From the IMG/VR virus record IMGVR_UViG_2534681663_000013, positions 1-38,045 of that record: 38,045 bases of DNA; one strand, written 5' to 3'. Position numbers and translations under genes: made by a program. The notes under the pieces were generated by a model. It was not told where the DNA came from and ran no database searches. It worked only from the letters and a program-made list of their open reading frames with translations. This stretch comes from a virus. Lineage: Duplodnaviria > Heunggongvirae > Uroviricota > Caudoviricetes. Shown in pieces: positions 9,291 to 25,595 of this stretch (position 1 is the first letter of the stretch; the number at the start of each line of letters is the position of its first letter).

Positions 9291-9357
9291 TTACATCAGC
9301 TTACCTACGTCAGCCCTCAAGTTCTTCAGCAAGCCAGCTCCACCGCCTGATTCCAAC

Positions 9358-9831: not shown

Positions 9832-9950
9832 TTTATGCTAGATAGTAAGTAAGTACTGATCTATCATTCTTCTCGCTCGAAAGAGCCACGAACAAACGAA
9901 CGCCCAATGCGCATAGCGCCAATGGCCACAATCACAACAAGGAGAAATAC

Positions 9951-10190
9951 ATGTCTAAGTCATTACTTGATCTGCTTAACAAGACCCGTGGCGATATTGC
10001 TTCCAAACGTGGCAATAACATTGATTTGACCCGTCTGAAAGATGGCAATAACTATCTGCGCATTTTTCCGAACAAGGACGAGCAGGTCGTGAAGATCATC
10101 GCTCGCGTCGCCAAACACCTGAACCACGACGCAATCAAGTTTGACGAAGCCGCTGCTTCGAAGCGAATCAACGAATCAAAAGGAGCCTAA
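9951..10190 (+). CDS. Hypothetical 79-aa protein immediately upstream of recA
   Basis: Good RBS (AAGGAGAAATAC-ATG). Its 3' end carries the recA RBS. Confidence 0.55.
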   Translation: MSKSLLDLLNKTRGDIASKRGNNIDLTRLKDGNNYLRIFPNKDEQVVKIIARVAKHLNHDAIKFDEAAASKRINESKGA

Positions 10191-10192
10191 TC

Positions 10193-12532
10193 ATGGCAAA
10201 AGGCAAATCCGCACTGGCACTGGCGCTGAAAAAGAAAATCGGCAGCAATGACGAGATTCAGAAGGTCTCCCACTGGATTGACTCCGGTTTCCCTCCACTG
10301 AACAAAGCCATTTCCGGACGTTACGACGGTGGTTTTCCGTGTGGGCGTATCGTTGAAGTCTTCGGGCCACCAAGCGCGGGGAAATGTGTTACCGCAGACA
10401 CCATGCTGCTGACGGAGCGTGGAATGGTAACAGTGAAAGAACTGTTTGAGATTGAGGGGCACAAAGCAACATGCACTACTCGCGATGTAGAGCATAACGT
10501 TGGACTCATCAATGAAAATGGCGTGATAGAGAAGACCTCACACCTGACATGGAACAACCGTCGCAAATTCAAGCGCATTAAGCTGGCATCAGGGGGTTAC
10601 ATCGAGGCTACGTTCCGTCACCCAATTCGTGTGGTTGACGACTTAGGCAATATCGTCTGGCGGTATGCTGAAAAAATCAGTGTAGGCGACACGATTCCTT
10701 CAATGGTTGGCACACATCAATTCGGCGATCAGCACTTGGATGCCAATATCGCAAAACTGATGGGCTATTTAATTGCTGACGGATACGTGGCCTCTGAAAA
10801 TTCTGTGCATGTTTCTAACACAGATCCATTCATCAAGGATGAGTACTACCGCCTCATTTCGCTGGTATCAGACAAGATGCCAGTTACGAGAAAACATAAC
10901 GGCTCGGAAGACCATGTGCTGTTTAGCAAAGAGGGGCGTTCGCTGCTTTTTAAAGAATATGGTCTGGAGTATGAGAAAGCTGCTGGCAAGCAGGTTCCGT
11001 TGAGTGTGCGTCGCGCCAATAGCGAGGCTCAAATTGCATTCCTTCGCGGCTACTTTGAGCTGGAATGCCACGTCAATGATGGTCGCTGCATTGAGGTTGT
11101 GAGCGCGAGTGGGCTGCTGCTACAGCAAATTCGCCTCATGCTCCTGAATCTGGGGATTACGTCAACTATCTCTGAAAAACACGTCGCAGGTTATAAAAAC
11201 ATATATTACCGGCTGTCATTCAGTGGCTCTAACTACGACCTTTTCCTGTCAACGATTGGGTTCGAGTCTCCGGCTCGTTTAGCAGTGGCAACCAAACGGG
11301 ACATTAGTTTTGACCGCACTTATTTAGGCTACGTTCCGCACATCAGCGGCTTAGTGAAATCACTCTACGAGTCACTCACCAAGACCTCTCGTAAAGACTA
11401 CGTTCTGGTAGATCACGTTATTGGCCGCGGCGATCGTGTCGGAATAGACAAACTGCGAGAAATCTATGTCTCCTTCATTGGCAGAAAGAATCGTTTTAAC
11501 GAGCATCTGTTTGCACAACTGGCAGCGGTAATTGACTCTAACTTGTTCTACGACGAAGTCGTGGCTATTGAGGAAGGTGAAGCACCAACGTTCGACGTAG
11601 CGATGCCGGAAACACACTCTTTCTGGTCTAACGGGATTATCAGCCACAACACATTCCTCGCGACGGCTGCGATGGTGTCAGCACAAAAACAGGATGGGCT
11701 GGCCGTATTCCTTGACCACGAAAACAGTTTCGACGTTGGTCTGGCGGTAGCGAACGGACTGAACGCCGACGAAGACGACGGTCAGTGGGTCTACAAACAG
11801 CCGGATACCTTCGAAGACTCCGTAGAGCTGATCGGCACAATCCTCAAGCTGGTGCGCGACGAAGAGCTTATTCCGGAAACAGCCCCTATCTGCATCGTAG
11901 CCGACTCTCTGGCGTCGAGGGTTCCGAACTCGAAGGCTGAGAAGTTCGACAAGATGGCAGAAGGCACTGCGAAGGACAAAGATCAGCTGAACATGAACGA
12001 CAACACGGAGCTGGCGCGCGCGACAAGTGCGAACTTCCCTACTCTGGCGCTTTGGGCGCGTAAGTACAACGCGTGCATCATCTTCTTGAACCAGGTGCGT
12101 ACCAAAATTGGTGTGATGTTTGGCGATCCGACTACGTCTCCGGGTGGCGACTCTCCGAAGTTCTACGCGTCGGTGCGCATCCGTCTGGGTGCATCCGTCA
12201 TGAAGGATGGCAAAGAGAAGATCGGACAGGACGTTGGCGCCGAGTGCATTAAAAACAAAGTCGCGCCTCCGTTTGGCAAATGCTCATGGAAATTCTACTT
12301 CGACCCGACTCGCGGGCTGGACGTCGTCGAGTCTCTGGTTGAATACATGCTGGAGGAAGGATACCTGCCCAAGAGCGCCAGCGGGCGTGTGGAAATTGGC
12401 GAGAAGAAATACACCAAATCACAGATCGTCGAGATGTATCGGGAGAAGCCATTAGCTGAAATCATTGCTGCGTTACAGGCAATAGATGACAGGCGCGAGA
12501 AGACATCACCGACAGATGAATTAGAAGATTAA
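10193..12532 (+). CDS. recA: RecA/UvsX-family recombinase precursor containing an intein
   Basis: N-extein ends GPPSAGK, C-extein starts TFLATAAMV and continues with a RecA-like core. The exteins sum to ~357 aa. Confidence 0.85.
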   Translation: MAKGKSALALALKKKIGSNDEIQKVSHWIDSGFPPLNKAISGRYDGGFPCGRIVEVFGPPSAGKCVTADTMLLTERGMVTVKELFEIEGHKATCTTRDVEHNVGLINENGVIEKTSHLTWNNRRKFKRIKLASGGYIEATFRHPIRVVDDLGNIVWRYAEKISVGDTIPSMVGTHQFGDQHLDANIAKLMGYLIADGYVASENSVHVSNTDPFIKDEYYRLISLVSDKMPVTRKHNGSEDHVLFSKEGRSLLFKEYGLEYEKAAGKQVPLSVRRANSEAQIAFLRGYFELECHVNDGRCIEVVSASGLLLQQIRLMLLNLGITSTISEKHVAGYKNIYYRLSFSGSNYDLFLSTIGFESPARLAVATKRDISFDRTYLGYVPHISGLVKSLYESLTKTSRKDYVLVDHVIGRGDRVGIDKLREIYVSFIGRKNRFNEHLFAQLAAVIDSNLFYDEVVAIEEGEAPTFDVAMPETHSFWSNGIISHNTFLATAAMVSAQKQDGLAVFLDHENSFDVGLAVANGLNADEDDGQWVYKQPDTFEDSVELIGTILKLVRDEELIPETAPICIVADSLASRVPNSKAEKFDKMAEGTAKDKDQLNMNDNTELARATSANFPTLALWARKYNACIIFLNQVRTKIGVMFGDPTTSPGGDSPKFYASVRIRLGASVMKDGKEKIGQDVGAECIKNKVAPPFGKCSWKFYFDPTRGLDVVESLVEYMLEEGYLPKSASGRVEIGEKKYTKSQIVEMYREKPLAEIIAALQAIDDRREKTSPTDELED
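10385..11650 (+). other. Intein (422 aa) with LAGLIDADG homing-endonuclease domain, inserted between Lys and Thr of the RecA Walker A motif
   Basis: Begins with Cys (CVTADTML), TxxH block (ATFRHP), LAGLIDADG blocks (LMGYLIADGYV, LRGYFELECHV), ends ...GIISHN followed by Thr. Confidence 0.8.
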
Positions 12533-12538
12533 TTTTCA

Positions 12539-12562
12539 GGCGTCCGAATGGACGCCTTTATA
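12539..12562 (+). terminator. Rho-independent terminator after recA (GGCGTCCGAATGGACGCC + TTTAT)
   Basis: Perfect 7-bp stem hairpin followed by a T-rich tract. Confidence 0.6.
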
Positions 12563-12622
12563 CCTTGAAAATATATAAGCACTTACTTACCATCTACACA
12601 CAATAGCCACATAGGAAAACAC

Positions 12623-12823
12623 ATGATCAAACTCTATCTGATGGCAGTGGCTACAGGTATATCTGTAGTTTTCATCTACTGTTTGCTGGTTCCGTCGCTG
12701 ATCTCGGCTAAAAGCGATATTGCCGTAATGCTTGGAATCATTGTTGCTTTTGGCGCTCCTGTTATCGGCTTTAATGTTGGTCGTAACTTTCTGAAGTCAC
12801 TAATTAATTCGAAGGGGAAGTAA
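12623..12823 (+). CDS. Small hydrophobic (2-TM) membrane protein
   Basis: 66 aa with two hydrophobic stretches. RBS AGGAAAACAC-ATG. Confidence 0.5.
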   Translation: MIKLYLMAVATGISVVFIYCLLVPSLISAKSDIAVMLGIIVAFGAPVIGFNVGRNFLKSLINSKGK

Positions 12824-12826
12824 GTA

Positions 12827-13018
12827 ATGAAGAAAGGTTTACTGGCAGTGATCGTGGCTGCTGTTTGCACAATGGGTCTTACAGGCTGCGATCGTGTTGA
12901 GCCTGGGTACGTTGGCATCAAAGTAAACAAATTGGGTGAAGACAAAGGTATCGGTGAAGTTGTCGGCGTTGGCCGTCAGTGGACTGGTCTGAATACCGAG
13001 CTGTACACCTCTCTTTAA
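12827..13018 (+). CDS. Small lipoprotein (signal peptide + lipobox LTGC); possibly a 3'-truncated gene
   Basis: MKKGLLAVIVAAVCTMGLTGC signal peptide and lipobox. The ORF ends at the edge of the low-GC island. Confidence 0.5.
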   Translation: MKKGLLAVIVAAVCTMGLTGCDRVEPGYVGIKVNKLGEDKGIGEVVGVGRQWTGLNTELYTSL

Positions 13019-13046
13019 GTCATCTTAAATGACTCTGAGGTGTCTG

Positions 13047-13088
13047 TTAAACCTGTGGCGATTCAGTCTATTAAACCTGTGGCGATTC
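13047..13088. repeat. Direct repeat 2 x TAAACCTGTGGCGATTCA separated by 6 bp
   Basis: Two 18-bp copies at 13047-13064 and 13071-13088, at the left edge of the R-M island upstream of hsdM. Confidence 0.7.
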
Positions 13089-13250
13089 ACTTTATGGTGT
13101 CATAAACTTAAATCTAGCGCCGGGTAGAACAAGTTAATCGAACGATGTAGCGGCCATTTAGGCGTTACAGAAAGAACAGAATTTTAAATTTATAGTGAAG
13201 CCGTTGCAGCAACTTTGTGGGGTGCAACCAACACTGAACAGGAAAAGAAA

Positions 13251-15680
13251 ATGGATCATAGTGTACATAACAAGCTCATCTCATTTATATGGAACATTGC
13301 CGACGACTGTTTACGTGATGTGTACGTTCGCGGTAAGTACCGCGATGTGATTTTACCTATGGTGGTATTACGACGTTTAGATACGTTACTTGAACCCACC
13401 AAAGAAGCCGTGCTTGAAGAGGTCAAGTTCCAAAAAGAAGAGATGCAAGCCACGGAGCTTGATGATGAACCATTGAAGGCGGCTAGTGGTTATGTTTTTT
13501 ACAATACATCTAAATGGACCCTGAAATCCCTGTTCAATACCGCAACGAATAACCAACAGATATTACTCGCCAACTTTGAAGAGTACCTGCTTGGCTTTAG
13601 CGATAATGTTAAAGAAATCATTGAATGCTTTAACCTCAAGTCGCAAATTCGTCACATGGCCTCAAAGCAAGTCCTTCTTGATGTCGTCGAAAAGTTTGTT
13701 TCCCCTTACATCAACTTAACTCATGAAACGGTCGAAGACCCAGATGGCAACAAGATGCCAGCCCTTACTAACCTGGGTATGGGGTACGTGTTCGAAGAGT
13801 TGATCCGTAAGTTCAACGAGGAGAATAACGAAGAAGCCGGTGAGCACTTTACACCTAGGGAAGTGATTGAGCTGATGACACACTTGGTTTTTGACCCAGT
13901 GAAAGAGCAGCTACCATTGACCATGACCGTTTACGACCCTGCGTGTGGTAGCGGTGGTATGCTCACTGAATCTCAAAACTTCATTGAAGAGAAATACCCG
14001 AACGACAGCCGAGATATTTACCTTTACGGCAAAGAGATCAATGACGAGACCTACGCGATTTGTAAATCGGACATGATGATCAAAGGTAACAACCCTGAGA
14101 ACATCAAGGTAGGCTCAACCTTGTCTACCGACGAGTTTGCGGCTTCACGCTTTGACTTTATGTTGTCTACCCCGCCATACGGTAAGAGTTGGGCGTCTGA
14201 ACAGAAGTACATTAAAGACGGCAGTGATGTGATTGACCCGCGTTTTAAGGTTAGCCTGAAAGACTATTGGGGAAATCTCGAAGTGGTGGATGCCACGCCA
14301 CGTTCGAGTGATGGCCAGCTGCTTTTCTTAATGGAAATGGTCAACAAGATGAAAGATCCGAGCGTAAGTCCATTAGGCAGCCGGATTGCCTCTGTTCATA
14401 ACGGCTCATCGCTCTTTACCGGTGATGCGGGCGGTGGCGAAAGTAATATTCGTCGCTTCATCATTGAAAACGACATGCTAGATGCCATCGTTCAGTTACC
14501 TAATAACCTGTTCTATAACACTGGCATTACCACTTACATTTGGGTGTTGAGCAACAATAAACCTGAGGCGCGTAAAGGTAAGGTGCAATTAATTGATGCC
14601 AGCTTGCTCTACCGTAAGTTGCGCAAGAACTTAGGTAACAAAAACTGCGAATTTGCGCCTGAGCACATCACGGAAATTACCGATACTTACCTCGCGTGTA
14701 AGGATGTTGAAAGAGCACTGGATGCAAACAATGATCCTGTTGGCATCGCCAGTAAGGTATTCAGCAATGACGATTTTGGCTACTACAAAGTCACTATCGA
14801 GCGCCCAGATCGCCGCAAAGCCAAGTTTACTCAAGATGCCATAGCCCCACTGCGTTTTGATAAGCAACTTAGTGAAGTGATGGAGTACGTGTACGCAGAG
14901 CACGGCGAACGTGTTTACGAAAAAACTGGCTACGGGTCAGATCAGAAAAAGAGCTTCTTAAAATCCATCGAGAAAGACATTATTTCTTGGTGTGAAGATA
15001 ACGACATCAGTCTCAATGCTAAGGCTAAGGCCAAACTGCTTGATGTGAAACACTGGCTGGCGCTAAAAGCATTGCTTGAAACTGCACAAACGCTGATGGC
15101 TGACATCGGTAGCATTGAATTTGATGACTTCAATAGCTTTAAAACCCAAGTTGATAAATCGCTAAAAGCCCATGCTATTAAGCTTTCAGCACCTGAGAAA
15201 AATGCCATTCTTCACGCGGTGAGCTGGTATGACGAAACCGCCAAGAAAGTGGTTAAAAAGGTAGTTAAATTAACAGGTGATAAATTAAACGACCTGCTGG
15301 AGCGCTATGAGTGTGAAGTCGCTGACTTGCCAGATTTTGGTTATTACCCCGTTCCTTCAGCAGAAGGCGGTAAAAAAGGCGAGTATATCACTTACGAGAC
15401 CAATTCAGACCTGCGAGATACAGAATCTGTTCCATTAAAGCAAAGCATTTACCAGTACTTCCTAGATGAAGTGAAGCCTCATGTCGATGAAGCATGGATA
15501 AACCTAGATACGGTAAAAATTGGCTATGAAATCAGCTTCAATAAGTATTTCTACCGTCATAAACCGCTGCGTAGTTTAGAAGAGGTCACAACCGACATTA
15601 TCAACCTAGAACAAAAAGCCGAAGGTCTTATTGCGCAGATATTGGGTGTGAACGTGACGGAAGTTCAGGGAGAAGCCTAA
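13251..15680 (+). CDS. hsdM: Type I restriction-modification methyltransferase subunit HsdM (long form, ~810 aa)
   Basis: AdoMet motif YDPACGSGGML, catalytic TPPYG motif, and the conserved HsdM C-terminal segment (LPNNLFYNTGITTYIWVL). Start taken as ATG 13251 with RBS AGGAAAAGAAA. Confidence 0.85.
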   Translation: MDHSVHNKLISFIWNIADDCLRDVYVRGKYRDVILPMVVLRRLDTLLEPTKEAVLEEVKFQKEEMQATELDDEPLKAASGYVFYNTSKWTLKSLFNTATNNQQILLANFEEYLLGFSDNVKEIIECFNLKSQIRHMASKQVLLDVVEKFVSPYINLTHETVEDPDGNKMPALTNLGMGYVFEELIRKFNEENNEEAGEHFTPREVIELMTHLVFDPVKEQLPLTMTVYDPACGSGGMLTESQNFIEEKYPNDSRDIYLYGKEINDETYAICKSDMMIKGNNPENIKVGSTLSTDEFAASRFDFMLSTPPYGKSWASEQKYIKDGSDVIDPRFKVSLKDYWGNLEVVDATPRSSDGQLLFLMEMVNKMKDPSVSPLGSRIASVHNGSSLFTGDAGGGESNIRRFIIENDMLDAIVQLPNNLFYNTGITTYIWVLSNNKPEARKGKVQLIDASLLYRKLRKNLGNKNCEFAPEHITEITDTYLACKDVERALDANNDPVGIASKVFSNDDFGYYKVTIERPDRRKAKFTQDAIAPLRFDKQLSEVMEYVYAEHGERVYEKTGYGSDQKKSFLKSIEKDIISWCEDNDISLNAKAKAKLLDVKHWLALKALLETAQTLMADIGSIEFDDFNSFKTQVDKSLKAHAIKLSAPEKNAILHAVSWYDETAKKVVKKVVKLTGDKLNDLLERYECEVADLPDFGYYPVPSAEGGKKGEYITYETNSDLRDTESVPLKQSIYQYFLDEVKPHVDEAWINLDTVKIGYEISFNKYFYRHKPLRSLEEVTTDIINLEQKAEGLIAQILGVNVTEVQGEA

Positions 15681-16987
15681 TGGAAAGTTTAGCTTTGATG
15701 CCGAAGTATGAGGCTTATAAAGATTCTCAGGTTCAATGGATAGGTGATATACCAGCCAACTGGCATCTGGAAAAGGCTAAGTGGCTGTTTTATAAAGCAG
15801 ATAGAAAGCCTCTCGTTGATGATGATATCGTCACTTGTTTCCGAGATGGGCAAGTTACGTTGAGAAAAAACAGAAGGACTGAGGGGTTTACTAATGCTTT
15901 AAAAGAGCATGGTTATCAGCGTATTTGTAAAGGGGACTTAGTTATCCATGCAATGGATGCCTTTGCAGGAGCGATAGGTGTCTCTGATTCTGATGGAAAA
16001 TCAACACCAGTATATGCAGCATGCGTCCCAAGAAAGATAGGCAAAGTTAATTCATATTATTATGCCTACTATATGCGTGATTTGGCTCTGTCAGGCTTCA
16101 TTGTGTCGCTTGCGAAAGGAATTAGAGAGCGCTCAACAGATTTTCGGTTTAATGATTTTGCAGAATTATTATTACCGTTTCCGGATTATGAAGAGCAAAC
16201 CCTAATAGCCAACTTCCTCGACAAGAAAACCGCTCTAATCGACGAAGCGATTTCGATCAAAGAGCAGCAAATTAGCCTGCTGAAAGAGCGTAAGCAGATC
16301 ATCATCCAACAGGCGGTGACCCAAGGGCTTGATCCCAATGTGCCAATGAAAGACTCCGGTGTGGATTGGATTGGTAAGATTCCAGCGCATTGGGATATTG
16401 TGCCAGGATTTACAGTATTTAAAGAGGGAAAAGACTCGAACAAAGGGATGATTGAATCACAAGTTTTATCTCTCAGTTATGGAAATGTTATTATAAAACC
16501 AGAGGAGAAATTGGTTGGGCTTGTACCTGAGTCTTTTGAAACGTATCAAATAGCTTTACCTGGCGACATCATAATACGTTGTACAGACTTGCAAAATGAC
16601 AAAACGAGCTTGAGAACGGGGATAGTGCGGAATAAAGGAATTATAACTAGTGCTTACCTTAACTTACGGTTGAAAACGGAACATTCAGCTGAATTTATGC
16701 ATTATTTTCTTCATGTATTAGATATAACTAAAACTATATATCGTTTTGGTTCTGGGCTGAGACAAAACTTGAGTTATAAAGATTTTAAGCATATGAGAAT
16801 ATTGATGCCTCCTAAAGCAGAGCAAATTGAAATAGTAAATTACATCAATAATCAAGTAGAAATGACTGAGTCATCTATTGATCTGATTAAAAATAAAATA
16901 GAAAAACTAAAAGAATATAAAACCACCCTGATCAACAGCGCCGTGACAGGAAAAATAAAAATCACCCCAGAAATGGTTGAGCAATAG
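15680..16987 (+). CDS. hsdS: Type I R-M specificity subunit HsdS (two target-recognition domains)
   Basis: Duplicated conserved HsdS segments (PDYEEQTLIANFLDKKTALIDEAI and PPKAEQIEIVNYINNQVE). Start overlaps the hsdM stop (TAATGG). Confidence 0.85.
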   Translation: MESLALMPKYEAYKDSQVQWIGDIPANWHLEKAKWLFYKADRKPLVDDDIVTCFRDGQVTLRKNRRTEGFTNALKEHGYQRICKGDLVIHAMDAFAGAIGVSDSDGKSTPVYAACVPRKIGKVNSYYYAYYMRDLALSGFIVSLAKGIRERSTDFRFNDFAELLLPFPDYEEQTLIANFLDKKTALIDEAISIKEQQISLLKERKQIIIQQAVTQGLDPNVPMKDSGVDWIGKIPAHWDIVPGFTVFKEGKDSNKGMIESQVLSLSYGNVIIKPEEKLVGLVPESFETYQIALPGDIIIRCTDLQNDKTSLRTGIVRNKGIITSAYLNLRLKTEHSAEFMHYFLHVLDITKTIYRFGSGLRQNLSYKDFKHMRILMPPKAEQIEIVNYINNQVEMTESSIDLIKNKIEKLKEYKTTLINSAVTGKIKITPEMVEQ

Positions 16988-16996
16988 GACGCGAAT

Positions 16997-18160
16997 ATGT
17001 TCACGGTAAATCATCAAACCAACAGGATTAGTCCTGTTAGGACAAAGAAGTTCAGTGAGTTGGGCTTTACTGAGCGCAAGCATCTTCAGGAGTGGTTGGC
17101 ACACGAACCTTCCGCATTGGGTGAAGAGTTGTTGATTATTCAAAAAGAGTTCGATGGCTTTGATGACACCCGTGAACGATTAGATTTACTGGCACTGGAT
17201 AAAGATGGCAACTTGGTCATTATTGAAAATAAGCTGGACGACAGTGGCCGAGATGTGGTGTGGCAGGCCCTTAAATATGCCTCTTACTGTGCCAGTTTAA
17301 CCAAAGCACAAATAGTTGACATTTACCAGCAGTACTTAGACCGCTATGAGCCTGTAACAGCAGAGGTTGACCTGTTAAATGCCCCTGCAAGTGCCTCAGC
17401 TAGAATATGTGAGTTTTTGGATGCGCCCGATCTGGATGAGTTAAAGCTCAACCTGGGTAACAGCCAGCGCATTATGTTAGTTGCGGCAAACTTTCGCAAA
17501 GAAGTGACCAGCACCGCGCTGTGGTTATTGGGTCAAGGAATTAGCATTGCCTGCTTCAAAATCACGCCTTATTCACTGGGTGAACAGCTACTGATTAATA
17601 TTGACCAGATCATCCCAACGCCGGAAGCGAAAGAGTTGATGATCGGCATTAATGCCAAGGAAGCGGAAGAAAAAACCACCGAAGTGGTACTAAAAAACCG
17701 CCATACGGTGCGGCGCGAATACTGGGAGCGTGCCTTAGAGGCGTTTCAGAAAAGCGCTTGCCAACTCTATAACAACATTAGCCCAAGCAAAGATCATTGG
17801 TTATCAGCAGGCTCAGGGTTAAGTGGGTGTCCGTATAACCTGATATTTCTGCAAAAAGAGCTTCGAGTAGAGCTTTGGATCAGCCGTGGGGTTACCGAAG
17901 AGAATAAATACCTTTTTGACTTGTTGAGTCAGTCCAAACAGGACATTGAACATACTTTTGGTGCAGAACTTGAGTGGATGAGGCTGGATGAGAAGAAATC
18001 TTGCCGTATTCAGTTTTCGACCAAAGCTGATGGGTTTAACAAAGATACGTGGCCCCAAGCGGTTGCGTGGCACTTAGAGCAGATGACAAAGTTAGAAAAA
18101 GCCTTAAAAGGACCGCTGCAAAAAGCGGCTGAGGCAATGAAACAGAAGAATTTTGATTAA
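16997..18160 (+). CDS. Hypothetical protein with N-terminal PD-(D/E)xK nuclease-like motif, embedded between hsdS and hsdR
   Basis: 387 aa. Motif ...RERLDLLALDKDGNLVIIENKLDD fits the D-x(n)-ExK pattern. Same strand and tight spacing with the hsd genes. Confidence 0.6.
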   Translation: MFTVNHQTNRISPVRTKKFSELGFTERKHLQEWLAHEPSALGEELLIIQKEFDGFDDTRERLDLLALDKDGNLVIIENKLDDSGRDVVWQALKYASYCASLTKAQIVDIYQQYLDRYEPVTAEVDLLNAPASASARICEFLDAPDLDELKLNLGNSQRIMLVAANFRKEVTSTALWLLGQGISIACFKITPYSLGEQLLINIDQIIPTPEAKELMIGINAKEAEEKTTEVVLKNRHTVRREYWERALEAFQKSACQLYNNISPSKDHWLSAGSGLSGCPYNLIFLQKELRVELWISRGVTEENKYLFDLLSQSKQDIEHTFGAELEWMRLDEKKSCRIQFSTKADGFNKDTWPQAVAWHLEQMTKLEKALKGPLQKAAEAMKQKNFD

Positions 18161-18174
18161 GGGAACTTACAATT

Positions 18175-21100
18175 ATGGTCAGTCAAACCAATGAACAAGC
18201 ATTAGAGTCGGCCATTGAGAAATGTCTGGCTGGGATCAGTACTGAAGAGCTCAAAGAGGGGCTGAGTCAGCAGTCACTGGGTGCTGGATACTTCATTGGT
18301 GCTGCTAGTGACTTTAATATGCAATATGCCATTGATGAACGTTTTTTCTGGCAATTTCTGCAAAAGACACAAGAAGTAGAGTTGGCCAAACTGCAAAAGA
18401 ACAACCCCTCAGATTGGCAGCGTAAGTTACTCGAACGATTTGACCGATTGATTAAGAAGCATGGCATTCTTCATTTACTTAAGAAAGGGCTAAGCGTAGA
18501 CGATGCTCACTTCAATTTGCTCTATCCAGCCCCTTTGGCAAGTAGTAGTGAGAAGGTAAAGCAAAACTTTGCAGATAACGTGTTTAGTTGTACTCGCCAA
18601 GTGCGCTATTCCATGGTAAATCCCCTACAAGAAATCGACATGGTATTGTTTATCAACGGAATACCCTTGATAACGCTGGAGTTGAAGAACGCATGGACCG
18701 GGCAAACAGCACGTTATCACGGCCAAAAGCAGTATCGAGATGATCGGGATGCAACTCAGCCATTGCTGACCTTTGGCCGCTGCCTAGTGCATATGGCGGT
18801 CGATACCGACGAAGTGTATATGACCACCAAGTTATCAGGTAGCAGTACATTCTTCTTGCCGTTCAATAAAGGTCACAATCTTGGACAAGGCAACCCGCCG
18901 AATCCATCTGGCCATAAAACGGCATACCTATGGCAAGAAGTATTCACTAAAGACAGCTTGGCGAATATTATTCAGCATTTTGTGCGTCTGGATGGGTCAA
19001 GCAAAGATCCATTACCAAAGCGAACCCTGTTCTTTCCTCGATACCATCAATTGGATGTGGTGAGAAAATTAGTAGACCATGCCGCCCAGCACGGTGTCGG
19101 TCAGACTTACTTAATTCAACACTCAGCCGGTTCAGGTAAGTCTAACTCGATTACCTGGGCAGCTTATCAGCTAATTGAAACCTATCCTGCTTCGTCTGAT
19201 GTGGCAGGCGGAAAAAGCTTGGAGCAGCCGTTGTTTGACTCTGTGATTGTGGTCACCGATAGACGCCTATTGGACAAGCAGCTGCGGGATAACATTAAAG
19301 AGTTTTCTGAAGTAAAGAACATTATTGCCCCAGCGAATAAGTCTTCTGAGCTTAAGCAGGCGCTGGAGAATGGCAAAAAGATTATTATAACGACGATTCA
19401 GAAATTCCCGTTCATTATTGATGGTATCACCGATCTTAGTGACAAGCGCTTTGCAGTGATCATCGATGAAGCACACAGCTCACAGTCTGGTTCGGCGCAT
19501 GACAATATGAACCGAGCGATGGGCAAGTCTGAAGTCGAAGAGGCAGAAGATGCTCAGGATAAAATCCTTCAGGCGATGAGATCGCGTAAGATGCGCGGGA
19601 ATGCGTCGTACCTGGCATTTACAGCGACACCAAAAAACAGCACTTTGGAGAAATTTGGTCAACGCCAAGAAGATGGCTCTTAAAAGCCGTTTCACTTGTA
19701 TTCGATGAAACAAGCCATTGAAGAAGGCTTCATCTTGGATGTGCTGGCAAATTATACGACGTACAAAAGTTATTATGAGATTGAGAAATCAATTGCTGAT
19801 AACCCTGAGTTTGATACCAAAAAGGCGCAGAAAAAACTCAGAGCTTATGTAGAACGAAGCCAGCAAACAATTGATATCAAGGCAGAGATTATGCTGGAGC
19901 ATTTTGTTCCGCATGTCGTGAATACGAAAAAGCTCAAAGGTAAAGGTAAAGGAATGGTGGTCACTCAAAATATTGAGGCGGCCATTCGATACTACAAAGC
20001 GATAAGGCGAATACTTGAGGAGCAAGGAAACCCGTTTAAAGTTGCCATTGCTTTCTCAGGAACCAAAGAAGTTGATGGTATTGAATATACCGAAGCAGAT
20101 ATTAATGGTTTTGCCGAGTCAGATACCAAAGATATGTTTGATACCGATGAGTATCGACTTTTAGTGGTTGCTAACAAGTATCTGACTGGGTTTGACCAGC
20201 CTAAGCTTTGCGCCATGTATGTAGATAAGAAGCTCGCCAGTGTCTTGTGTGTTCAGGCGCTATCTAGGCTCAATCGCAGTGCACCTAAGCTAGGGAAGAA
20301 AACAGAAGACTTGTTTATCCTGGATTTTTTCAACTCGGTTGAAGATATTCAATCAGCATTCGATCCTTTCTATACAGCAACGTCATTGTCCCAAGCTACA
20401 GATATAAACGTACTGCACGAGTTGAAAGATGAAATGGACGATGTCGGTGTGTACGAGTGGTATGAAGTTGAAGACTTTGTGACGCGTTATTTCAAGAATG
20501 AAGACGCCCAAACACTCAGTCCAATCATTGATATTGCCGCAGCGCGGTTTGACCATGAACTAGATCTTGAAGCTGAAGCTAAAGTGGACTTTAAGATTAA
20601 AGCCAAACAGTTCGTTAAAATCTATGGGCAGATGGCTTCTATCATGCCTTATGAAATGGTCAGCTGGGAAAAACTGTTTTGGTTCCTGAAGTTTTTAATA
20701 CCGAAATTGAAAGTGGAAGATCCCGATGCTGATGCTATTGATGAGCTTCTCGATTCTGTCGATCTGAGTTCATACGGTTTGCAACGTGTGAAGCTTAACC
20801 ACAGCATTAAACTTAGTGACCAAGAAGCGGAGCTTGATCCTCAAAATCCGAACCCACGTGGGGTGCATGGCGGTGAAAAAGAAACTGACCCGCTGGATGA
20901 AATCATTCGCACATTTAATGAGCGATGGTTCCAGGGCTGGAGTGCCACACCTGAAGAGCAAAAGGTTAAGTTCGTGAACATCGCTGAAAGTATCCGCAAT
21001 CACCCTGACTTCGAATCGAAATACAAAAACAACCCAGATCCCCATAATCGAGATTTGGCCTTCGAAAAAATGCTCAAGGAAATCATGCTGCAACGCCGTA

Positions 21101-21192
21101 AAGATGAACTTGAGCTCTACAAGTTGTTCGCAGGAGATTCAGCATTTAAAGCCTCGTGGACGCAAAGTATGCAACGAATGGTGGGTAGGTAG
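18175..21192 (+). pseudogene. hsdR: Type I R-M restriction subunit HsdR interrupted by an in-frame TAA at 19681-19683
   Basis: ORFs 18175-19683 and 19696-21192 share one frame. Helicase motifs I (SAGSGKSNS), II (IIDEAHSS) and III (FTATPKNS) lie before the stop, and the conserved segment KQAIEEGFILDV follows directly after it. Confidence 0.8.
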
Positions 21193-21584
21193 AAAGGAGT
21201 GATGGTTTGCTGAAGGCAGTCTCAGAGTTATTAGGTGGGTCACCAGGCCTGAAAGGACGTCAAATTGCCAAGGAGCTGGGGCTGGTCAGCTGTCAGCAGC
21301 CGACTCACCGGTATAAACGTGGTGGTCATGAACATGTTGCTATCCCTAACTACCTTGAACGGCAGTTCGCCGTGACCGAGCCAAATCAGGTGTGGTGCGG
21401 TGATGTGACCTATATCTGGACGGGTAAGCGCTGGGCGTACCTCGCCGTTGTTCTCGACCTGTTCGCAAGAAAACCAGTGGGCTGGGCCATGTCGTTCTCG
21501 CCGGACAGCAGGCTCACCATGAAAGCGCTGGAAATGGCATGGGAAACCCGTGGTAAGCCCGGCGGGGTGATGTTCCACAGCGAT
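21193..21584 (+). mobile_element. IS3-family (IS911-like) transposase OrfB remnant, truncated after the HSD of the DDE core
   Basis: Translation ...[65 protein letters not shown] matches IS911-type OrfB as recalled. Homology stops at ~21584, with no orfA or downstream orfB. Confidence 0.7.
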
Positions 21585-21589
21585 AGTAA

Positions 21590-23040
21590 TAATGCCGATG
21601 TCAGTCTTTACCACCACTTAGTTTGCCGTTTAACCAGATTGGTGTGATTACTGATGCAGTGAAGACCTTCCCGCATCCTGACTCACACAGCGATCGACCT
21701 TTTGTGTCCTGCCCTGGACCCGTCGGTTGCCGGAAGCGCCTTCATGCGAGGCATCTCCTCACCGATGCGCGTGACTCAAGAAGGGCCTGACGGCTTGTCT
21801 CGTTACTGTCCTGTCCGGGTTATCTGTCTGGAGATTCAACTCTGTTTCCTCACAGGAGCTCTGTCATGGTTGATAAAGTTACCGAAGCTGCCGTTGTGGG
21901 TGGCGTGGATACACATAAAGATTTGCACGTTGCCGCTGTCGTAGATCAGAACAATAAAGTCCTTGGGACTCAGTATTTCTCCACAACACGACAAGGTTAC
22001 CGGCAGATGCTGGCATGGATGACCTCGTTTGGGACATTAAAGCGAATTGGTGTTGAGTGCACAGGTACCTATGGTTCCGGTTTGCTTCGTTATTTTCAGA
22101 ACGCCGGGTTAGAAGTTCTTGAGGTGACTGCTCCAGACCGGATGGAGCGACGCAAACGGGGTAAAAGTGACACAATTGATGCTGAATGTGCCGCTCATGC
22201 AGCATTCTCAGGCATCAGGACAGTTACTCCCAAAACGCGTGATGGCATGATTGAGTCCCTGCGGGTATTAAAAACTTGCCGAAAAACAGCAATATCAGCC
22301 CGCAGAGTCGCTCTCCAGATTATCCATTCAAATATTATCTCTGCCCCGGATGAATTACGTGAACAGCTCAGAAATATGACGCGCATGCAGCTCATCAGGA
22401 CCCTGGGTTCCTGGAGACCTGATGCCAGTGAATACCGCAATGTAACCAACGTTTATCGCATTTCATTAAAGTCCCTTGCCCGACGCTATCTCGAGTTACA
22501 TGACGAAATCGCTGATCTGGATGTCATGATTGCGGCAATTGTCGACGAGTTGGCACCTGAGCTGATTAAACGTAATGCTATCGGATACGAAAGCGCTTCA
22601 CAGTTGCTGATCACTGCCGGAGACAATCCTCAACGGTTAAGATCAGAATCAGGATTTGCGGCACTGTGTGGTGTCAGCCCGGTCCCCGTTTCTTCTGGAA
22701 AAACGAACCGTTACCGACTTAATCGTGGTGGAGATCGTGCTGCAAATAGTGCACTTCACATCATCGCCATCGGACGCTTACGAACTGACGCAAAAACAAA
22801 GGAATATGTCGCCAGGCGTGTAGCCGAAGGACATACAAAAATGGAAGCGATACGCTGTCTAAAGCGATATATCTCCCGCGAAGTTTACACGTTACTGCGC
22901 AATCAAAACAGGCGGATCAACAGTATCCCGATAACAGCTTGACTCTTAGAAGGGCGTCCAGGGCAGTCATTAGGTTCGTTTACAACAAATCGGGTGATGT
23001 ATACGGCGTTCACGCGAAGAACGACAGCTACCTTTTCGAT
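21590..23040 (+). mobile_element. IS110-family insertion sequence (ends approximate)
   Basis: Single DEDD-type transposase gene with ~280 bp of non-coding sequence upstream and ~100 bp downstream. Boundaries inferred from where IS911 homology stops and the next gene starts. Confidence 0.55.
21866..22942 (+). CDS. IS110-family (DEDD) transposase
   Basis: N-terminal RuvC-like motif VVGGVDTHKDLHVAAVVD and the typical C-terminal IS110/IS116/IS902 transposase domain (...SESGFAALCGVSPVPVSSGKTNRYRLNRGGDRAANSALH...). Confidence 0.9.
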   Translation: MVDKVTEAAVVGGVDTHKDLHVAAVVDQNNKVLGTQYFSTTRQGYRQMLAWMTSFGTLKRIGVECTGTYGSGLLRYFQNAGLEVLEVTAPDRMERRKRGKSDTIDAECAAHAAFSGIRTVTPKTRDGMIESLRVLKTCRKTAISARRVALQIIHSNIISAPDELREQLRNMTRMQLIRTLGSWRPDASEYRNVTNVYRISLKSLARRYLELHDEIADLDVMIAAIVDELAPELIKRNAIGYESASQLLITAGDNPQRLRSESGFAALCGVSPVPVSSGKTNRYRLNRGGDRAANSALHIIAIGRLRTDAKTKEYVARRVAEGHTKMEAIRCLKRYISREVYTLLRNQNRRINSIPITA

Positions 23041-23057
23041 GACTGCAAGGAGGTTAG

Positions 23058-23273
23058 TTGATGGCGGTTACACTGACAGGTCTGGAAATCGAAAAAACAA
23101 GCGGCTACTGGCGTGCCAAAGGGTTCAAGCAGTCCGGCGTACTGGAACGACTGGAACGTGAAGATGGGTATATTGTCCACCAGCGACGTGAATGGCACAT
23201 GTACGATCCGGAAACAGGTAAGCTCGCAACGAAGGCCGGGACACTCTGGGGTCTGCTGAAGAAAATCCACTGA
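23058..23273 (+). CDS. Hypothetical 71-aa protein
   Basis: RBS AAGGAGG 7 nt upstream of the ATG. No family assignment. Confidence 0.45.
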   Translation: MMAVTLTGLEIEKTSGYWRAKGFKQSGVLERLEREDGYIVHQRREWHMYDPETGKLATKAGTLWGLLKKIH

Positions 23274-23280
23274 TAACACT

Positions 23281-23880
23281 ATCCACTGCGGTGAGTAGCC
23301 AGCTCACCGCGTGTGAATCCGGCTCATAACCACTGTAGCGAGTAGAACACCCTTCAGGTATGCACCCCAACCACTGTAGTGAGCAAACCCTCTGCCACGA
23401 TATCAACTATCCACTGTAGTGAGTAAATTGGTGATTATCGGGGTCGCTATACACTGTAGTGAGTAAACAGGCGTTCACTGACTACAAACAACCACTATAG
23501 AGAGTGATGGAATGCCCCCTCCAGCGGATATCCACTATGGAGAGTAAATCTTCGCTGTTTTAAACGGATATCCACTCACTACAGTGGATAGAGGTCAAGT
23601 CAGCCAATTCTGCTCTTCACAGTGGATAGTCAACAATGAGGAGAGCGACGATAACCGCTGTAGAGAGTAGACTTAACAGAGATACCCAGTGACCGCTAAC
23701 CTCTCAGCCCTTGTTTTATCTATGTTTGCAACCACTAACATTTACTTCGCGATTTGTGCGCACTGCCTACAGTGGTTATTCTTCGGTTTCTTTTACTCAC
23801 TACAGTGGATATTGCATTTCCGATAAACAAAAAGGCTCACTATCTACTGTAGTGAGCCTTTTTACTCTCTACAGTGGTTG
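23281..23880. repeat. Iteron array (~14 copies of a ~17-19 bp CCACTGTAGTGAGTA-like repeat, both orientations) downstream of repA; incA-like copy-control locus
   Basis: Reiterated degenerate repeats (atccactgtagtgagtaa, aaccactatagagagtga, tccactcactacagtggata, and others) with irregular spacing. Confidence 0.8.
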
Positions 23881-23882
23881 GG

Positions 23883-24938
23883 CTATTTGCGAGCCTTTGC
23901 CTTGCGCAGCTCTTCGAGAATCGCCAGTTCTTCCTTGCTCAACATGACCATTTCCCCGTCTTTTTCTTCAGGGGCAACATCGATAATGTCCTCCGGATCA
24001 TCACCTGGCAAGATATCTTCTGGCTCTTCAGGCGTAGCCATAGATGGCGGCAGTGCCGAACGTAACTTCGGCCGTCTATAGTGGATGACGAAGTAGACCG
24101 AGCTGCCGCGTTTCACTTCAGTGTAATCGAGATAGCCGATCTCTCGCAGCTGCTCCATCGCCTTCCTGACTGTCGCATTCTGGGTAATGGTGCGGCTGGT
24201 TAAGTTAAGTCTGGCGCGTAAGCGAGCCAATGAGATTGGCGCCGGGTCTGGTGGCAAACTTTCAATGAAGGTGTAGAGCGCCTGCGCGGATTCCTTTCTG
24301 GAGAGTTCGTTGATGGCCCGAAGTTGCAAAAGCACCTTTTTGTCGAACTGGTAAAGTTCGAAAATCTTAGGATCGGCCTTCAGTTCGACCGTGTCATTCT
24401 TGGTACTGTACTTTGCCGTCTGCACAAGGTGCGTAACGTAATACTCTTCAGAGCCTTTGCTGCGGAATGAGATGGTGTTTGTGGCGATACGACTTAGAGA
24501 GCTGTCCAGGCGCTTACGTAACTTCGCGGACGATCTGGCTGTTGGTATGCCACAAAGTCTGACGAACTCGACGAACGGCAACGTGACGGTGTCACCAACA
24601 ACCTTGTGCTTGGCGAACGCGTGGATGATGCCCACCCATGTTTTGAAATCGTTATCCATATCAAGACGAAGACCAGCAATCCTTATATCCTCGTACCCTT
24701 CGGCTTTGGCCAGAGACAGCTGTTTGAGTTCAGCGGAGGCGTCCATAGAGACCATTTGCCCCTTTCTACCCCTGGATGTCGATTTCAGCGTCGGAACGAA
24801 GAGACCAAGACGCATCAGAGCAACAGGCTGAACTGTGTTGTTGGTGTTAGGAACTAACGTAACAACTTCGCCGGTCTTTTTGTCTGTTTCGGAAAATGCT
24901 TCGCTTATCGCAATGTTTTTATTGTCGTTTACGCTCAT
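23883..24938 (-). CDS. repA: Plasmid replication initiator RepA (P1 RepA / RepFIB-like)
   Basis: Signature segments [51 protein letters not shown] and LYTFIESLP match P1-type RepA as recalled. Flanked by iterons. Confidence 0.9.
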
Positions 24939-24974
24939 TCCAAATGTCTCTTTTTATTCGACGGCTTGGGTGCC

Positions 24975-25105
24975 TTTACTGATTACAGTGGATAGTAGCA
25001 CCCATCACAGTGGTTATCCTACCGCCTACAGCGGTTTTTCTACTCTCCATAGTGGTTGATTTACTCTCTATAGTGGTTGTTCTTCTCACTATAGTGGATA
25101 TCGAT
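24975..25105. repeat. Origin-proximal iteron cluster (6 direct copies of CTMYAGTGGWTR-like repeat) immediately upstream of repA
   Basis: Same repeat family as 23281-23880, all in one orientation. Position matches the oriR/incC iterons of P1-type replicons. Confidence 0.8.
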
Positions 25106-25147
25106 AACCTCTAAAGCCATGTGGCACAACGGTTTGCAGGGGCCGGG

Positions 25148-25220
25148 GATCTCTTTGGGTCTTTGTGGTTCTCTTTGGTTCTAACAGGGATCTGAATTAC
25201 TGGATCGGGCCTGTGTATAA
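25148..25220. promoter_or_regulatory. Origin-like module 1: 3 GATC sites plus a DnaA-box match (TGTGTATAA, rc TTATACACA)
   Basis: GATC at 25148, 25189 and 25203. DnaA-box consensus TTATNCACA matched at 25212-25220. Confidence 0.5.
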
Positions 25221-25379
25221 AAATCAGATAATTACAAAATCAGGCATCACTCCCCTTCTGGGGATAATGTGTGATCGAAATAAACACGCCGCAACGCAAA
25301 ATTTACAATATTTCCAAGAATATCAGCCATCTGCCGCAGAAAAACAGGCTCGGAGTTATCCAGTTAAAACATTGTCTCC

Positions 25380-25495
25380 TACTCACTACAGTGGATACCG
25401 ACTACTCTCCAGAGAGGTTGTTTTGCTCTTCATAGCGGTTATTATGCTCTCTACAGTGGTTATTTTGCTCCCTATAGTGGATAGTAACCCCTTCT
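25380..25495. repeat. Third iteron cluster (about 5 copies)
   Basis: cactacagtggatac, cttcatagcggttatt, ctctacagtggttatt and cctatagtggatag, same family as the other two clusters. Confidence 0.75.
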
Positions 25496-25523
25496 CAAGC
25501 CAGTAACCGCAAGCGCTGGAGAC

Positions 25524-25595
25524 GATCGGGGATCTCTTTTGATCTTCTGTAGGATCTCTCTGGGGATCTAAATATTGGATCGGGCCTGTGAATAA
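25524..25595. promoter_or_regulatory. Origin-like module 2: 6 GATC sites in 58 bp plus a DnaA-box match (TGTGAATAA, rc TTATTCACA)
   Basis: GATC at 25524, 25531, 25541, 25553, 25565 and 25578. DnaA-box match at 25587-25595. Parallel to module 1 (shared string TGGATCGGGCCTGTG). Confidence 0.6.

What the first reader, a model, noticed from the sequence alone, without database searches (positions are those of the whole stretch)
16997..18160. Unassigned PD-(D/E)xK-motif gene in the prrC position of a Type I R-M operon
A 387-aa ORF sits between hsdS and hsdR on the same strand with short gaps. In the classical prr locus this slot holds the anticodon nuclease PrrC, but this protein has no Walker A motif and instead carries an N-terminal ...ERLDLLALDKDGNLVIIENKLDD motif fitting the PD-(D/E)xK pattern, plus an unassigned ~300-aa C-terminal region. 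R-M operons often carry a second defence effector in this slot, so this is a candidate new R-M-linked defence or abortive-infection gene.
Basis: partly seen in the sequence, partly recalled or inferred. Interest (0 to 1): 0.7.

Follow-up and report, generated by a model that had tools for sequence, protein, structure and literature searches.

The report
Known candidate defence nuclease inside R-M operon
The gene between hsdS and hsdR is a real, intact nuclease gene, but it belongs to a family (Pfam DUF4268, PADLOC candidate PDC-S11) that others had already flagged as a probable anti-phage gene because it sits inside restriction operons. It is therefore a sensible but not a new finding.

Summary
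A 387-aa ORF (16997-18160, +) lies 9 nt after hsdS and 14 nt before hsdR. It has no Walker A motif and carries a D63/E77/K79 motif.

The motif is a genuine active site:
- E26, D63, E77, K79, Q90 and Y94 are invariant or nearly so in 103 full-length relatives.
- They align to the catalytic residues of NucS.
- A confident AlphaFold model finds NucS/EndoMS as its best solved match.

The C-terminus is not unassigned. It is Pfam DUF4268.

The whole protein matches PADLOC candidate PDC-S11 (E 8e-183). About 44 of 80 species-level loci show the order M-S-gene-R, in two distantly related type I families. Other copies sit beside Zorya, type III R-M or Abi genes, or stand alone, so the gene is probably autonomous.

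The best mechanism is a stand-alone, type IV-like nuclease that depends on DNA modification. This rests on analogy with MdgA, a nuclease-plus-DUF4268 protein that is inactivated by E77A and cuts T4 DNA but not unmodified T4-GT7 DNA. That step is inferred, because the MdgA sequence could not be obtained.

The host replicon is an SSU5-like E. coli phage-plasmid. Its hsdR carries a private nonsense codon.

Novelty and interest are both low.

The parts
16997..18160 (+). The gene in question: 387-aa protein with a NucS-like PD-(D/E)xK nuclease domain plus DUF4268 (PADLOC PDC-S11 family)
   Evidence: ORF and translation. PDC-S11 model PDLC04913 matches aa 1-383 at E 7.9e-183. AF2 model has pLDDT 94.6.
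16997..17617 (+). N-terminal nuclease domain, aa 1-207 (alpha-beta-beta-beta-alpha-beta core plus extension)
   Evidence: Secondary structure. Top Foldseek PDB matches are NucS 2vld and EndoMS 5gke, followed by SduA 8ps5. NCBIfam NucS models hit aa 15-102 at E 2.6e-5. The family profile hits NucS 2vld residues 159-192.
17072..17278 (+). Catalytic motif codons: E26 (17072-17074), D63 (17183-17185), E77 (17225-17227), K79 (17231-17233), Q90 (17264-17266), Y94 (17276-17278)
   Evidence: Invariant or at least 99% conserved in 103 full-length representatives. The 34-residue profile alignment to P. abyssi NucS residues 159-192 pairs D63, E77, K79, Q90 and Y94 with identical residues. Codons checked.
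17621..17749 (+). Long linker helix, aa 209-251, joining the two domains
   Evidence: DSSP on the AF2 model.
17708..18112 (+). DUF4268 domain (Pfam PF14088), aa 238-372: alpha-beta-beta-beta-alpha-alpha-beta-beta-alpha fold. Presumed DNA or modification recognition module.
   Evidence: Pfam E 1.4e-39. Domain model has pLDDT 97.3. It has only borderline fold similarity to YbjN and type III secretion chaperones (TM about 0.5, E about 0.02). W243, W327 and W352 are nearly invariant.
13251..15680 (+). hsdM, the type I methyltransferase. The listed ORF opens at TTG 13215; the ATG at 13251 matches the RefSeq start.
   Evidence: Pfam HsdM_N and N6_Mtase. PADLOC MTase_I at E 4.7e-267. RefSeq annotation of the closest plasmid. 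Start checked.
15680..16987 (+). hsdS, the specificity subunit
   Evidence: Pfam Methylase_S. PADLOC Specificity_I at E 6e-102.
18175..21192 (+). hsdR, the restriction subunit, interrupted by an in-frame TAA at 19681-19683 (Y503*)
   Evidence: HSDR_N, ResIII and T1R_D3 domains are split over two same-frame ORFs. Compared with the intact 1005-aa HsdR of NZ_CP040928. No other record carries the stop.
13011..22970 (.). Roughly 10-kb accessory insertion in the SSU5-like phage-plasmid backbone: the hsdM-hsdS-gene-hsdR cassette plus an IS3 rve fragment (21207-21647) and an IS110 transposase (21866-22942)
   Evidence: Homology to phage SSU5 stops at 13010 and resumes at 22971. IS domains. The M-S-gene-R genes have 43.5% GC against 50.9% in the left backbone.

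Best explanation
The gene encodes a self-contained defence endonuclease of the PDC-S11 / DUF4268-nuclease family.

The N-terminal domain is a Mg2+-dependent PD-(D/E)xK DNA nuclease of the NucS/RecB type, with active site E26-D63-E77-K79-Q90-Y94. The C-terminal DUF4268 domain, held on a long helix, selects the target.

The most likely target is hypermodified phage DNA, such as glucosyl-hydroxymethylcytosine or Mom-type adenine modification. That would make the protein a type IV-like, modification-dependent restriction enzyme. Co-transcribed inside the type I operon, it would cover the phages that escape type I restriction by modifying their bases. This is the same logic as the E. coli K-12 hsd-mrr-mcrBC immigration control region (from established knowledge).

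Shown here: the ORF, the fold, the conserved active site, family membership, and the embedding in R-M operons and other defence loci.

Inferred: nuclease activity, the defence role, and above all modification dependence.
For: Active site and fold:
- Active-site residues are invariant or nearly so in 103 full-length representatives.
- The family profile aligns to the core of NucS, P. abyssi 2vld residues 159-192.
- The AF2 model (pLDDT 94.6) has NucS/EndoMS as its best PDB matches.

Family and context:
- The full-length PDC-S11 hit has E 7.9e-183. PDCs were derived from genes embedded in BREX, DISARM and type I R-M systems.
- About 44 of 80 loci, one per species, have the order M-S-gene-R on one strand. 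These fall in two type I families whose HsdM and HsdR are only about 25% identical.
- Other copies sit next to Zorya I, type III R-M, an OLD-family ATPase, Abi_2, NERD or a Cap4-like nuclease. In an SXT/R391-type ICE the cassette lies between a BrxR regulator and a CBASS system.

Modification dependence:
- MdgA and MdgB both contain DUF4268 plus a nuclease. They protect E. coli from T4 but not from T4-GT7. Purified MdgA degrades T4 DNA much better than GT7 DNA, and E77A abolishes activity (PMC12366544).
- In this protein the ExK glutamate is E77. In 66 of 103 family representatives it is also at own-position 77.
- DUF4268 is also fused to GmrSD type IV enzymes (PMC4619093 and PMC5714182).
Against: - No experiment exists on this protein or, to my knowledge, on any confirmed PDC-S11 member.
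- MdgA's sequence could not be obtained, so family identity with MdgA rests on shared domain content and the E77 coincidence.
- That paper scanned the PADLOC v2.0 profiles yet its main text never mentions a PDC hit, which slightly argues against MdgA being PDC-S11.
- The DUF4268 model resembles no solved modified-base reader. Its best matches are borderline ones to YbjN and secretion-chaperone folds.
- Some homologues lie among housekeeping genes (gyrA, hisS, P450).
- NucS itself recognises mismatches or branched DNA, not modifications.
Confidence: 0.5

Rival explanations
1. A DNA-structure-sensing or DNA-end-sensing defence nuclease, like Shedu or NucS. The nuclease would attack phage replication or recombination intermediates, free ends or mismatched/branched DNA rather than modified bases. 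DUF4268 would serve for oligomerisation or autoinhibition.
For: The closest solved folds are NucS/EndoMS, which cleave mismatched or branched DNA, and the Shedu nuclease SduA is also among the top matches (8ps5, E 0.013). The long helices could mediate oligomerisation. DUF4268 resembles protein-binding chaperone folds more than any known DNA reader.
Against: There is no Shedu hit in PADLOC. The NucS N-terminal DNA-binding domain is absent. The experimentally tested DUF4268 nucleases were modification-dependent.
Confidence: 0.17
2. A PrrC-like guard wired to the type I enzyme. The nuclease would be held inactive by HsdR or HsdM and released when a phage anti-restriction protein disables the R-M complex, causing abortive infection.
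For: The gene sits in the same slot as prrC, with 9-nt and 14-nt intergenic gaps. The S-gene-R order is kept in two type I families that are only about 25% identical. Identity of the gene's protein tracks that of HsdM and HsdR (r = 0.93-0.94).
Against: 27 of 80 loci have no detected hsd gene within 10 kb, and others sit next to unrelated defence systems or housekeeping genes. In several loci 1-6 kb of other genes separate the gene from S or R. MdgA and MdgB each worked when expressed as a single ORF in E. coli. The identity correlation is dominated by two clusters and is explained by cassette co-inheritance.
Confidence: 0.1
3. An accessory nuclease or regulatory subunit of the type I R-M complex itself, for example processing DNA after HsdR cleavage or controlling restriction alleviation. 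It would have no independent defence activity.
For: Operon embedding and apparent co-transcription. No internal + strand promoter or terminator stands out above the shuffled expectation.
Against: The gene occurs frequently without hsd genes. Classical type I enzymes need no such subunit (established knowledge). In this window hsdR is broken yet the gene is intact.
Confidence: 0.06
4. A housekeeping NucS-type mismatch-repair endonuclease, or a passenger gene with no function.
For: Weak NucS hits. Some copies lie in housekeeping neighbourhoods.
Against: The NucS match is 23 bits against a cutoff of 216 and covers only the catalytic core. The gene is carried on phage-plasmids, ICEs and islands at 98-100% identity across genera. 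The ORF is intact, with an invariant active site, across the full-length representatives aligned.
Confidence: 0.03

Closest known systems
PADLOC phage defence candidate PDC-S11 (Payne et al. 2024, bioRxiv 10.1101/2024.01.29.577857)
   Same: Full-length profile match (PDLC04913, E 7.9e-183, aa 1-383 of 387) plus seven further PDC-S11 profiles. It is a single-gene candidate found embedded in type I R-M, BREX or DISARM systems, which is the situation here.
   Different: Nothing structural differs. PDC-S11 is only a computational candidate: I found no experimental test and no described mechanism.
MdgA / MdgB modification-dependent defence nucleases (Cell Host Microbe 2025, PMC12366544)
   Same: A nuclease domain plus DUF4268. 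A catalytic glutamate numbered E77. Single-gene defence. Widespread across phyla.
   Different: Sequence relatedness could not be tested. The type of MdgA's nuclease domain is not stated in the text held. MdgA came from a metagenomic insert, not from an R-M operon.
NucS / EndoMS mismatch endonuclease (PDB 2vld, 5gke)
   Same: The catalytic PD-(D/E)xK core with the D, ExK and QxxxY motifs. It is the best structural and profile match.
   Different: This protein lacks the NucS N-terminal DNA-binding and dimerisation domain. It scores far below the NucS family cutoff (23 against 216 bits). It carries DUF4268 instead and lies on mobile defence islands.
PrrC anticodon nuclease of the prr locus
   Same: The same genomic slot between hsdS and hsdR of a type I operon.
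   Different: No Walker A or ABC ATPase domain and no PrrC profile hit. It is a DNA-type PD-(D/E)xK nuclease rather than an RNase. Payne et al. [quoted passage not shown]
GmrSD-family type IV restriction enzymes with a C-terminal DUF4268
   Same: They share the DUF4268 accessory domain. They are stand-alone nucleases against modified phage DNA.
   Different: Their catalytic modules are DUF262 (ParB-like) and DUF1524 (His-Me), neither of which is present here.
Shedu (SduA)
   Same: A single-protein defence nuclease with a PD-(D/E)xK fold. There is a weak structural match (8ps5, E 0.013).
   Different: No Shedu/DUF4263 profile hit and a different accessory domain.

Membership tests
PADLOC PDC-S11 | Full-length match to a PDC-S11 profile HMM | tested here: met
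   PDLC04913 at E 7.9e-183, aa 1-383 against profile positions 1-373 of 375. Seven more PDC-S11 profiles hit at E 6e-67 to 2e-30.
PADLOC PDC-S11 | Found embedded in known multi-gene defence systems (type I R-M, BREX, DISARM) | tested here: met
   It lies between hsdS and hsdR in the window. About 44 of 80 related loci show M-S-gene-R.
Pfam DUF4268 (PF14088) | Domain match above the gathering score | tested here: met
   135.7 bits against a cutoff of 27, covering aa 238-372.
PD-(D/E)xK nuclease superfamily (NucS/RecB-like branch) | Conserved D...(D/E)xK, plus the upstream E and QxxxY, on an alpha-beta-beta-beta-alpha-beta core | tested here: met
   E26, D63, E77, K79, Q90 and Y94 are invariant or 99% conserved. 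They aligned with the NucS core. Fold match to 2vld and 5gke.
NucS / EndoMS orthologue | Score above the NCBIfam equivalog cutoff, and presence of the N-terminal DNA-binding domain | tested here: not met
   23.4 bits against a cutoff of 216. Only profile positions 117-202 of 250 (the catalytic domain) are matched.
PrrC | N-terminal ABC-type ATPase with a Walker A motif, and a PrrC profile match | tested here: not met
   No Walker A. No PrrC model appears among PADLOC hits at E up to 0.1.
MdgA | Nuclease domain plus DUF4268, with an essential Glu at position 77 | tested here: met
   The domain content is present. The ExK glutamate is E77. This is circumstantial only.
MdgA | Significant sequence similarity to the published MdgA protein | not testable with these tools
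   The sequence is only in Table S7, BioProject PRJNA1262520 and Zenodo 15758252. No supplements are held.
MdgA / type IV restriction | Cleavage or restriction that depends on DNA modification (T4 against T4-GT7) | not testable with these tools
   Needs phage challenge and in vitro cleavage assays.
GmrSD type IV enzymes | DUF262 and/or DUF1524 catalytic domains | tested here: not met
   Pfam finds only DUF4268.
Shedu | SduA/DUF4263 profile match | tested here: not met
   No hit in Pfam or PADLOC. There is only a weak Foldseek match (E 0.013).

The most novel reading that the evidence does not exclude
The conserved S-gene-R position in two type I families that are only about 25% identical may reflect a functional coupling rather than cassette inheritance. 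DUF4268, whose fold resembles protein-binding YbjN and secretion-chaperone domains, would dock on the type I complex. The nuclease would fire when phage anti-restriction proteins disable that complex. This would be a DNA-cutting analogue of the PrrC guard.

A milder novel reading is that DUF4268 is a new structural class of modified-base reader.
Probability: 0.12. Interest if true: 0.65.

Novelty: already known. Interest (0 to 1): 0.27.

Why it matters
If the proposed mechanism holds, many enterobacterial phage-plasmids, SXT/R391-type ICEs and genomic islands would carry a two-layer restriction cassette. The type I layer would act against unmodified foreign DNA and the type IV-like layer against hypermodified phage DNA. 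That is relevant to phage-therapy host range, because the same cassette occurs at 98-100% protein identity in E. coli, Vibrio, Salmonella, Proteus and marine bacteria.

It would also give PDC-S11, so far only a computational candidate, a mechanism. The E. coli origin makes the test easy.

The idea that this gene is a defence candidate because it is embedded in type I R-M is already published, so the finding adds an instance rather than a concept.

Tried and rejected
- **Single-sequence PDB search:** no hit. Only the family profile reached NucS.
- **MdgA sequence:** I tried the supplements of PMC12366544 and PMC11888456, but none are held. The text gives only repository identifiers.
- **Literature on 'PDC-S11', 'DUF4268', 'MdgA' and 'NucS-like':** no functional study of this family was found. 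One 2026 bioRxiv paper that mentions a NucS-like gene and phage defence could not be opened.
- **Promoter and terminator scan of the operon:** counts were at or below the shuffled expectation, so it was uninformative.
- **DUF4268-only model against the PDB:** only borderline matches to YbjN and secretion chaperones, and no known DNA or modified-base reader.
- **PrrC analogy:** rejected, because there is no ATPase and no profile hit.
- **NucS orthology:** rejected, because the score is far below the cutoff and the N-terminal domain is missing.
- **Shedu and GmrSD membership:** rejected, because there are no profile hits.
- **SXT ICE hotspot-5 paper:** it tested hsdR and other restriction genes but not this gene. 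I could not tie its ICEs to this cassette.

Full report
**Observation**

The window has an ATG-initiated ORF of 387 codons at 16997-18160 on the + strand. An AGGA lies 7 nt upstream of the start. The genes run in one direction:
- hsdM (13215/13251-15680; HsdM_N and N6_Mtase domains)
- hsdS (15680-16987)
- the ORF
- hsdR (18175-21192; HSDR_N, ResIII and T1R_D3 domains)

The gaps on either side of the ORF are 9 and 14 nt. The quoted motif is there (D63, E77, K79) and the protein has no Walker A motif. The description is therefore correct.

Two details need correcting. The C-terminal region is Pfam DUF4268 (aa 238-372, E 1.4e-39), so it is not unassigned. And hsdR is broken in this window by an in-frame TAA at 19681-19683. 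That codon is Tyr503 in the closest plasmid and in every one of 58 E. coli genome records and 35 plasmid records that hold the stretch. The stop is a private mutation or a sequencing error.

**What the protein is**

An exhaustive HMMER search of 1.84 billion cluster representatives found 5527 relatives at E ≤ 1e-3 and 471 at E ≤ 1e-30. Most are about 370 aa and align end to end.

In 103 full-length representatives, E26, D63, K79 and Y94 are invariant, and E77 and Q90 are 99% conserved. A profile of the family hits P. abyssi NucS. The alignment covers NucS residues 159-192 and pairs D63, E77, K79, Q90 and Y94 with identical NucS residues. NCBIfam NucS models hit aa 15-102, but at 23 bits against a cutoff of 216 and only over the catalytic half of NucS.

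An AlphaFold2 model built on 56 diverse sequences is confident (mean pLDDT 94.6). It shows three parts:
- an alpha-beta-beta-beta-alpha-beta nuclease domain (about aa 1-207)
- a long helix (aa 209-251)
- a compact alpha/beta domain, which is DUF4268

Foldseek against the PDB ranks NucS (2vld) and EndoMS (5gke) first, with the Shedu nuclease SduA a little lower. Modelled alone (pLDDT 97.3), DUF4268 has only borderline similarity to YbjN and type III secretion chaperone folds (TM about 0.5, E about 0.02). It resembles no solved DNA reader or modified-base reader.

The N-terminal PD-(D/E)xK assignment is therefore well supported. The role of DUF4268 is not shown by structure.

**Already catalogued**

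The whole protein matches PADLOC-DB profile PDLC04913 of 'PDC-S11' at E 7.9e-183 (aa 1-383), plus seven other PDC-S11 profiles. PDCs are 'phage defence candidates' that Payne et al. derived from genes embedded in BREX, DISARM and type I R-M systems (bioRxiv 10.1101/2024.01.29.577857).

The protein itself is 100% identical to database entries named 'DUF4268 domain-containing protein' from E. coli. It is 98-99% identical to entries from Vibrio, Salmonella, Alteromonas, Shewanella, Morganella, Proteus and others.

I found no paper that tests PDC-S11. The mentions found are census-type or correlative.

**Linkage to hsd genes**

I fetched the 80 best loci from one-genome-per-species contigs (protein identity 50-99%). 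I then searched their ORFs with iterated profiles seeded from the window's HsdM, HsdS and HsdR.

| Pattern | Loci |
|---|---|
| M-S-gene-R on one strand | about 44 of 80 |
| Same pattern, cut by a contig end | 2 more |
| Gene beside, not inside, a type I operon (after hsdR, or next to a divergently oriented operon) | 3 |
| No hsd gene detected within 10 kb | 27 (about 10 of these on contigs with under 1.5 kb on one side) |

The embedded copies fall into two groups. In loci where the gene's product is ≥ 73% identical to the window protein, HsdM and HsdR are about 80% identical to the window's. In loci where it is 51-65% identical, HsdM (about 510-590 aa) and HsdR are only 23-29% identical to the window's. 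So the slot between S and R is used in two distantly related type I families. In several loci, 1-6 kb of additional genes share the slot.

I examined 15 of the loci without detected hsd genes. The gene abuts:
- a Zorya type I system (L033)
- type III R-M (L054, L050)
- an OLD-family ATPase-TOPRIM gene (L064)
- Abi_2 (L015)
- a NERD protein (L056)
- a Cap4-like nuclease-ATPase (L078)

In others the neighbours are gyrA, hisS, a phosphoglycerate mutase or a P450. The gene thus behaves as a mobile, self-contained module that prefers defence loci but does not require a type I partner.

**Where this copy sits**

The flanks are 89-94% identical to Salmonella phage SSU5 (dnaE, cobT-like, SSB, exonuclease, RecA-like, repA). 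The closest records are 100-160-kb E. coli plasmids, so the window comes from an SSU5-like phage-plasmid.

SSU5 homology stops at 13010 and resumes at 22971. The stretch between holds the M-S-gene-R cassette plus an IS3 fragment and an IS110 transposase. The M-S-gene-R genes have 43.5% GC against 50.9% in the left backbone.

The same cassette occurs elsewhere:
- in an E. coli chromosomal island next to a tRNA-Ile gene, flanked by IS debris
- in an Alteromonas genome and marine metagenome contigs, where it lies between rumAB-like genes and a TraI_2 relaxase. This is an SXT/R391-type ICE variable region by my reading. There it is preceded by a BrxR (WYL) regulator and followed by a CBASS system.

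**Mechanism**

A Mg2+-dependent DNA endonuclease is the straightforward inference from the conserved NucS/RecB-type site.

For target choice, the best available evidence is external. Forsberg and colleagues recovered two single-gene defences, MdgA and MdgB, each with a nuclease domain and a DUF4268 domain. Their findings (PMC12366544):
- Both block T4 but not the unmodified mutant T4-GT7.
- MdgA also blocks Mu.
- Purified MdgA degrades T4 DNA far better than GT7 DNA.
- MdgA E77A is inactive.

In the window protein the ExK glutamate is residue 77, as it is in 66 of 103 family representatives. That makes it plausible, but not proven, that MdgA belongs to this family. DUF4268 is also a recurrent C-terminal addition to GmrSD type IV enzymes, and one server-based prediction gave it a 98% probability of binding DNA (PMC4619093, PMC5714182).

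I therefore favour a type IV-like, modification-dependent nuclease that complements the adjacent type I system (confidence about 0.5).

The rivals are:
- a Shedu/NucS-like sensor of DNA structures or ends (0.17)
- a PrrC-like guard coupled to the R-M complex (0.10)
- an accessory subunit of the type I enzyme (0.06)
- a repair or passenger gene (0.03)

The frequent hsd-independent contexts, and the fact that MdgA and MdgB work as single ORFs, argue against the coupled models. They are not excluded.

**Limits**

- MdgA's sequence could not be retrieved.
- The MdgA paper scanned PADLOC v2.0 profiles, yet its main text never mentions a PDC hit. That mildly counts against MdgA being PDC-S11.
- The context survey covers only homologues of at least 50% identity. 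My hsd detection used home-made profiles, so 'no hsd' loci could hide divergent systems.
- No model coordinates were available to check whether the conserved tryptophans (W243, W327, W352) form a pocket.

**Verdict**

The defence-candidate idea is reasonable but already published as PDC-S11, and the protein is a known database entry. It is not a PrrC analogue in mechanism. I rate novelty as 'already known' and interest as low to moderate. The main residual value is that this is an easy E. coli test case for an uncharacterised candidate family.

Noticed in passing
window 19681-19683 (within hsdR, 18175-21192): hsdR carries an in-frame TAA in place of Tyr503. All 58 E. coli genome records and 35 plasmid records containing this 61-nt stretch differ at one base, and in the closest plasmid that base restores Tyr503. 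The restriction arm of this copy is either inactivated or mis-sequenced, while hsdM, hsdS and the DUF4268 gene are intact.
   Followed up: yes
window 10193-12532 (insert about 10385-11659): The phage-plasmid's RecA-like recombinase gene contains a roughly 1.27-kb LAGLIDADG intein (Intein_splicing and LAGLIDADG_3 domains). It is absent from the 1077-nt homologue in phage SSU5.
   Followed up: partly
window 1-13010 and 22971-38045: The backbone is an SSU5-like phage-plasmid (dnaE, cobT-like, SSB, exonuclease, repA), 89-94% identical to Salmonella phage SSU5. The R-M cassette replaces the SSU5_062-064 region.
   Followed up: yes
window 21207-21647 and 21866-22942: An IS3-family integrase-core fragment and an intact-looking IS110-family transposase form the right end of the inserted cassette. 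The closest plasmid has the IS3 fragment in the same place.
   Followed up: partly
L084-L089 (e.g. Alteromonas CP013930, locus coordinates 5212-18781): A cassette whose DUF4268 protein is 99% identical to the window's (same M-S-gene-R gene order) sits in what looks like an SXT/R391-type ICE variable region between rumAB-like genes and traI. It is preceded by a BrxR/WYL regulator and followed by a CBASS system (SAVED-HNH effector plus CD-NTase). The phage-plasmid copy lacks the BrxR gene.
   Followed up: partly
L018-L080: Homologues 51-65% identical to the window protein are embedded between hsdS and hsdR of a different type I family (HsdM about 510-590 aa, 25-29% identical to the window's). 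Often 1-6 kb of extra genes share the slot.
   Followed up: partly
proteins P0174, P0209, P0225: Some relatives carry three to five tandem DUF4268 domains. At least two of them have the first copy starting near residue 213, where a nuclease domain would fit.
   Followed up: no
window 15680-16987 (hsdS): HsdS is only 72% identical to that of the closest plasmid, while HsdM, HsdR and the DUF4268 protein are about 99% identical. This copy therefore probably has a different recognition specificity.
   Followed up: no
BFVD entry G3MBC4 (Bacillus phage G gp54): This is the only strong viral structural match to the full-length model (Foldseek E 4e-9, 349 aligned columns). PHROG phrog_27742 matches the DUF4268 part (E 5e-17).
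   Followed up: no
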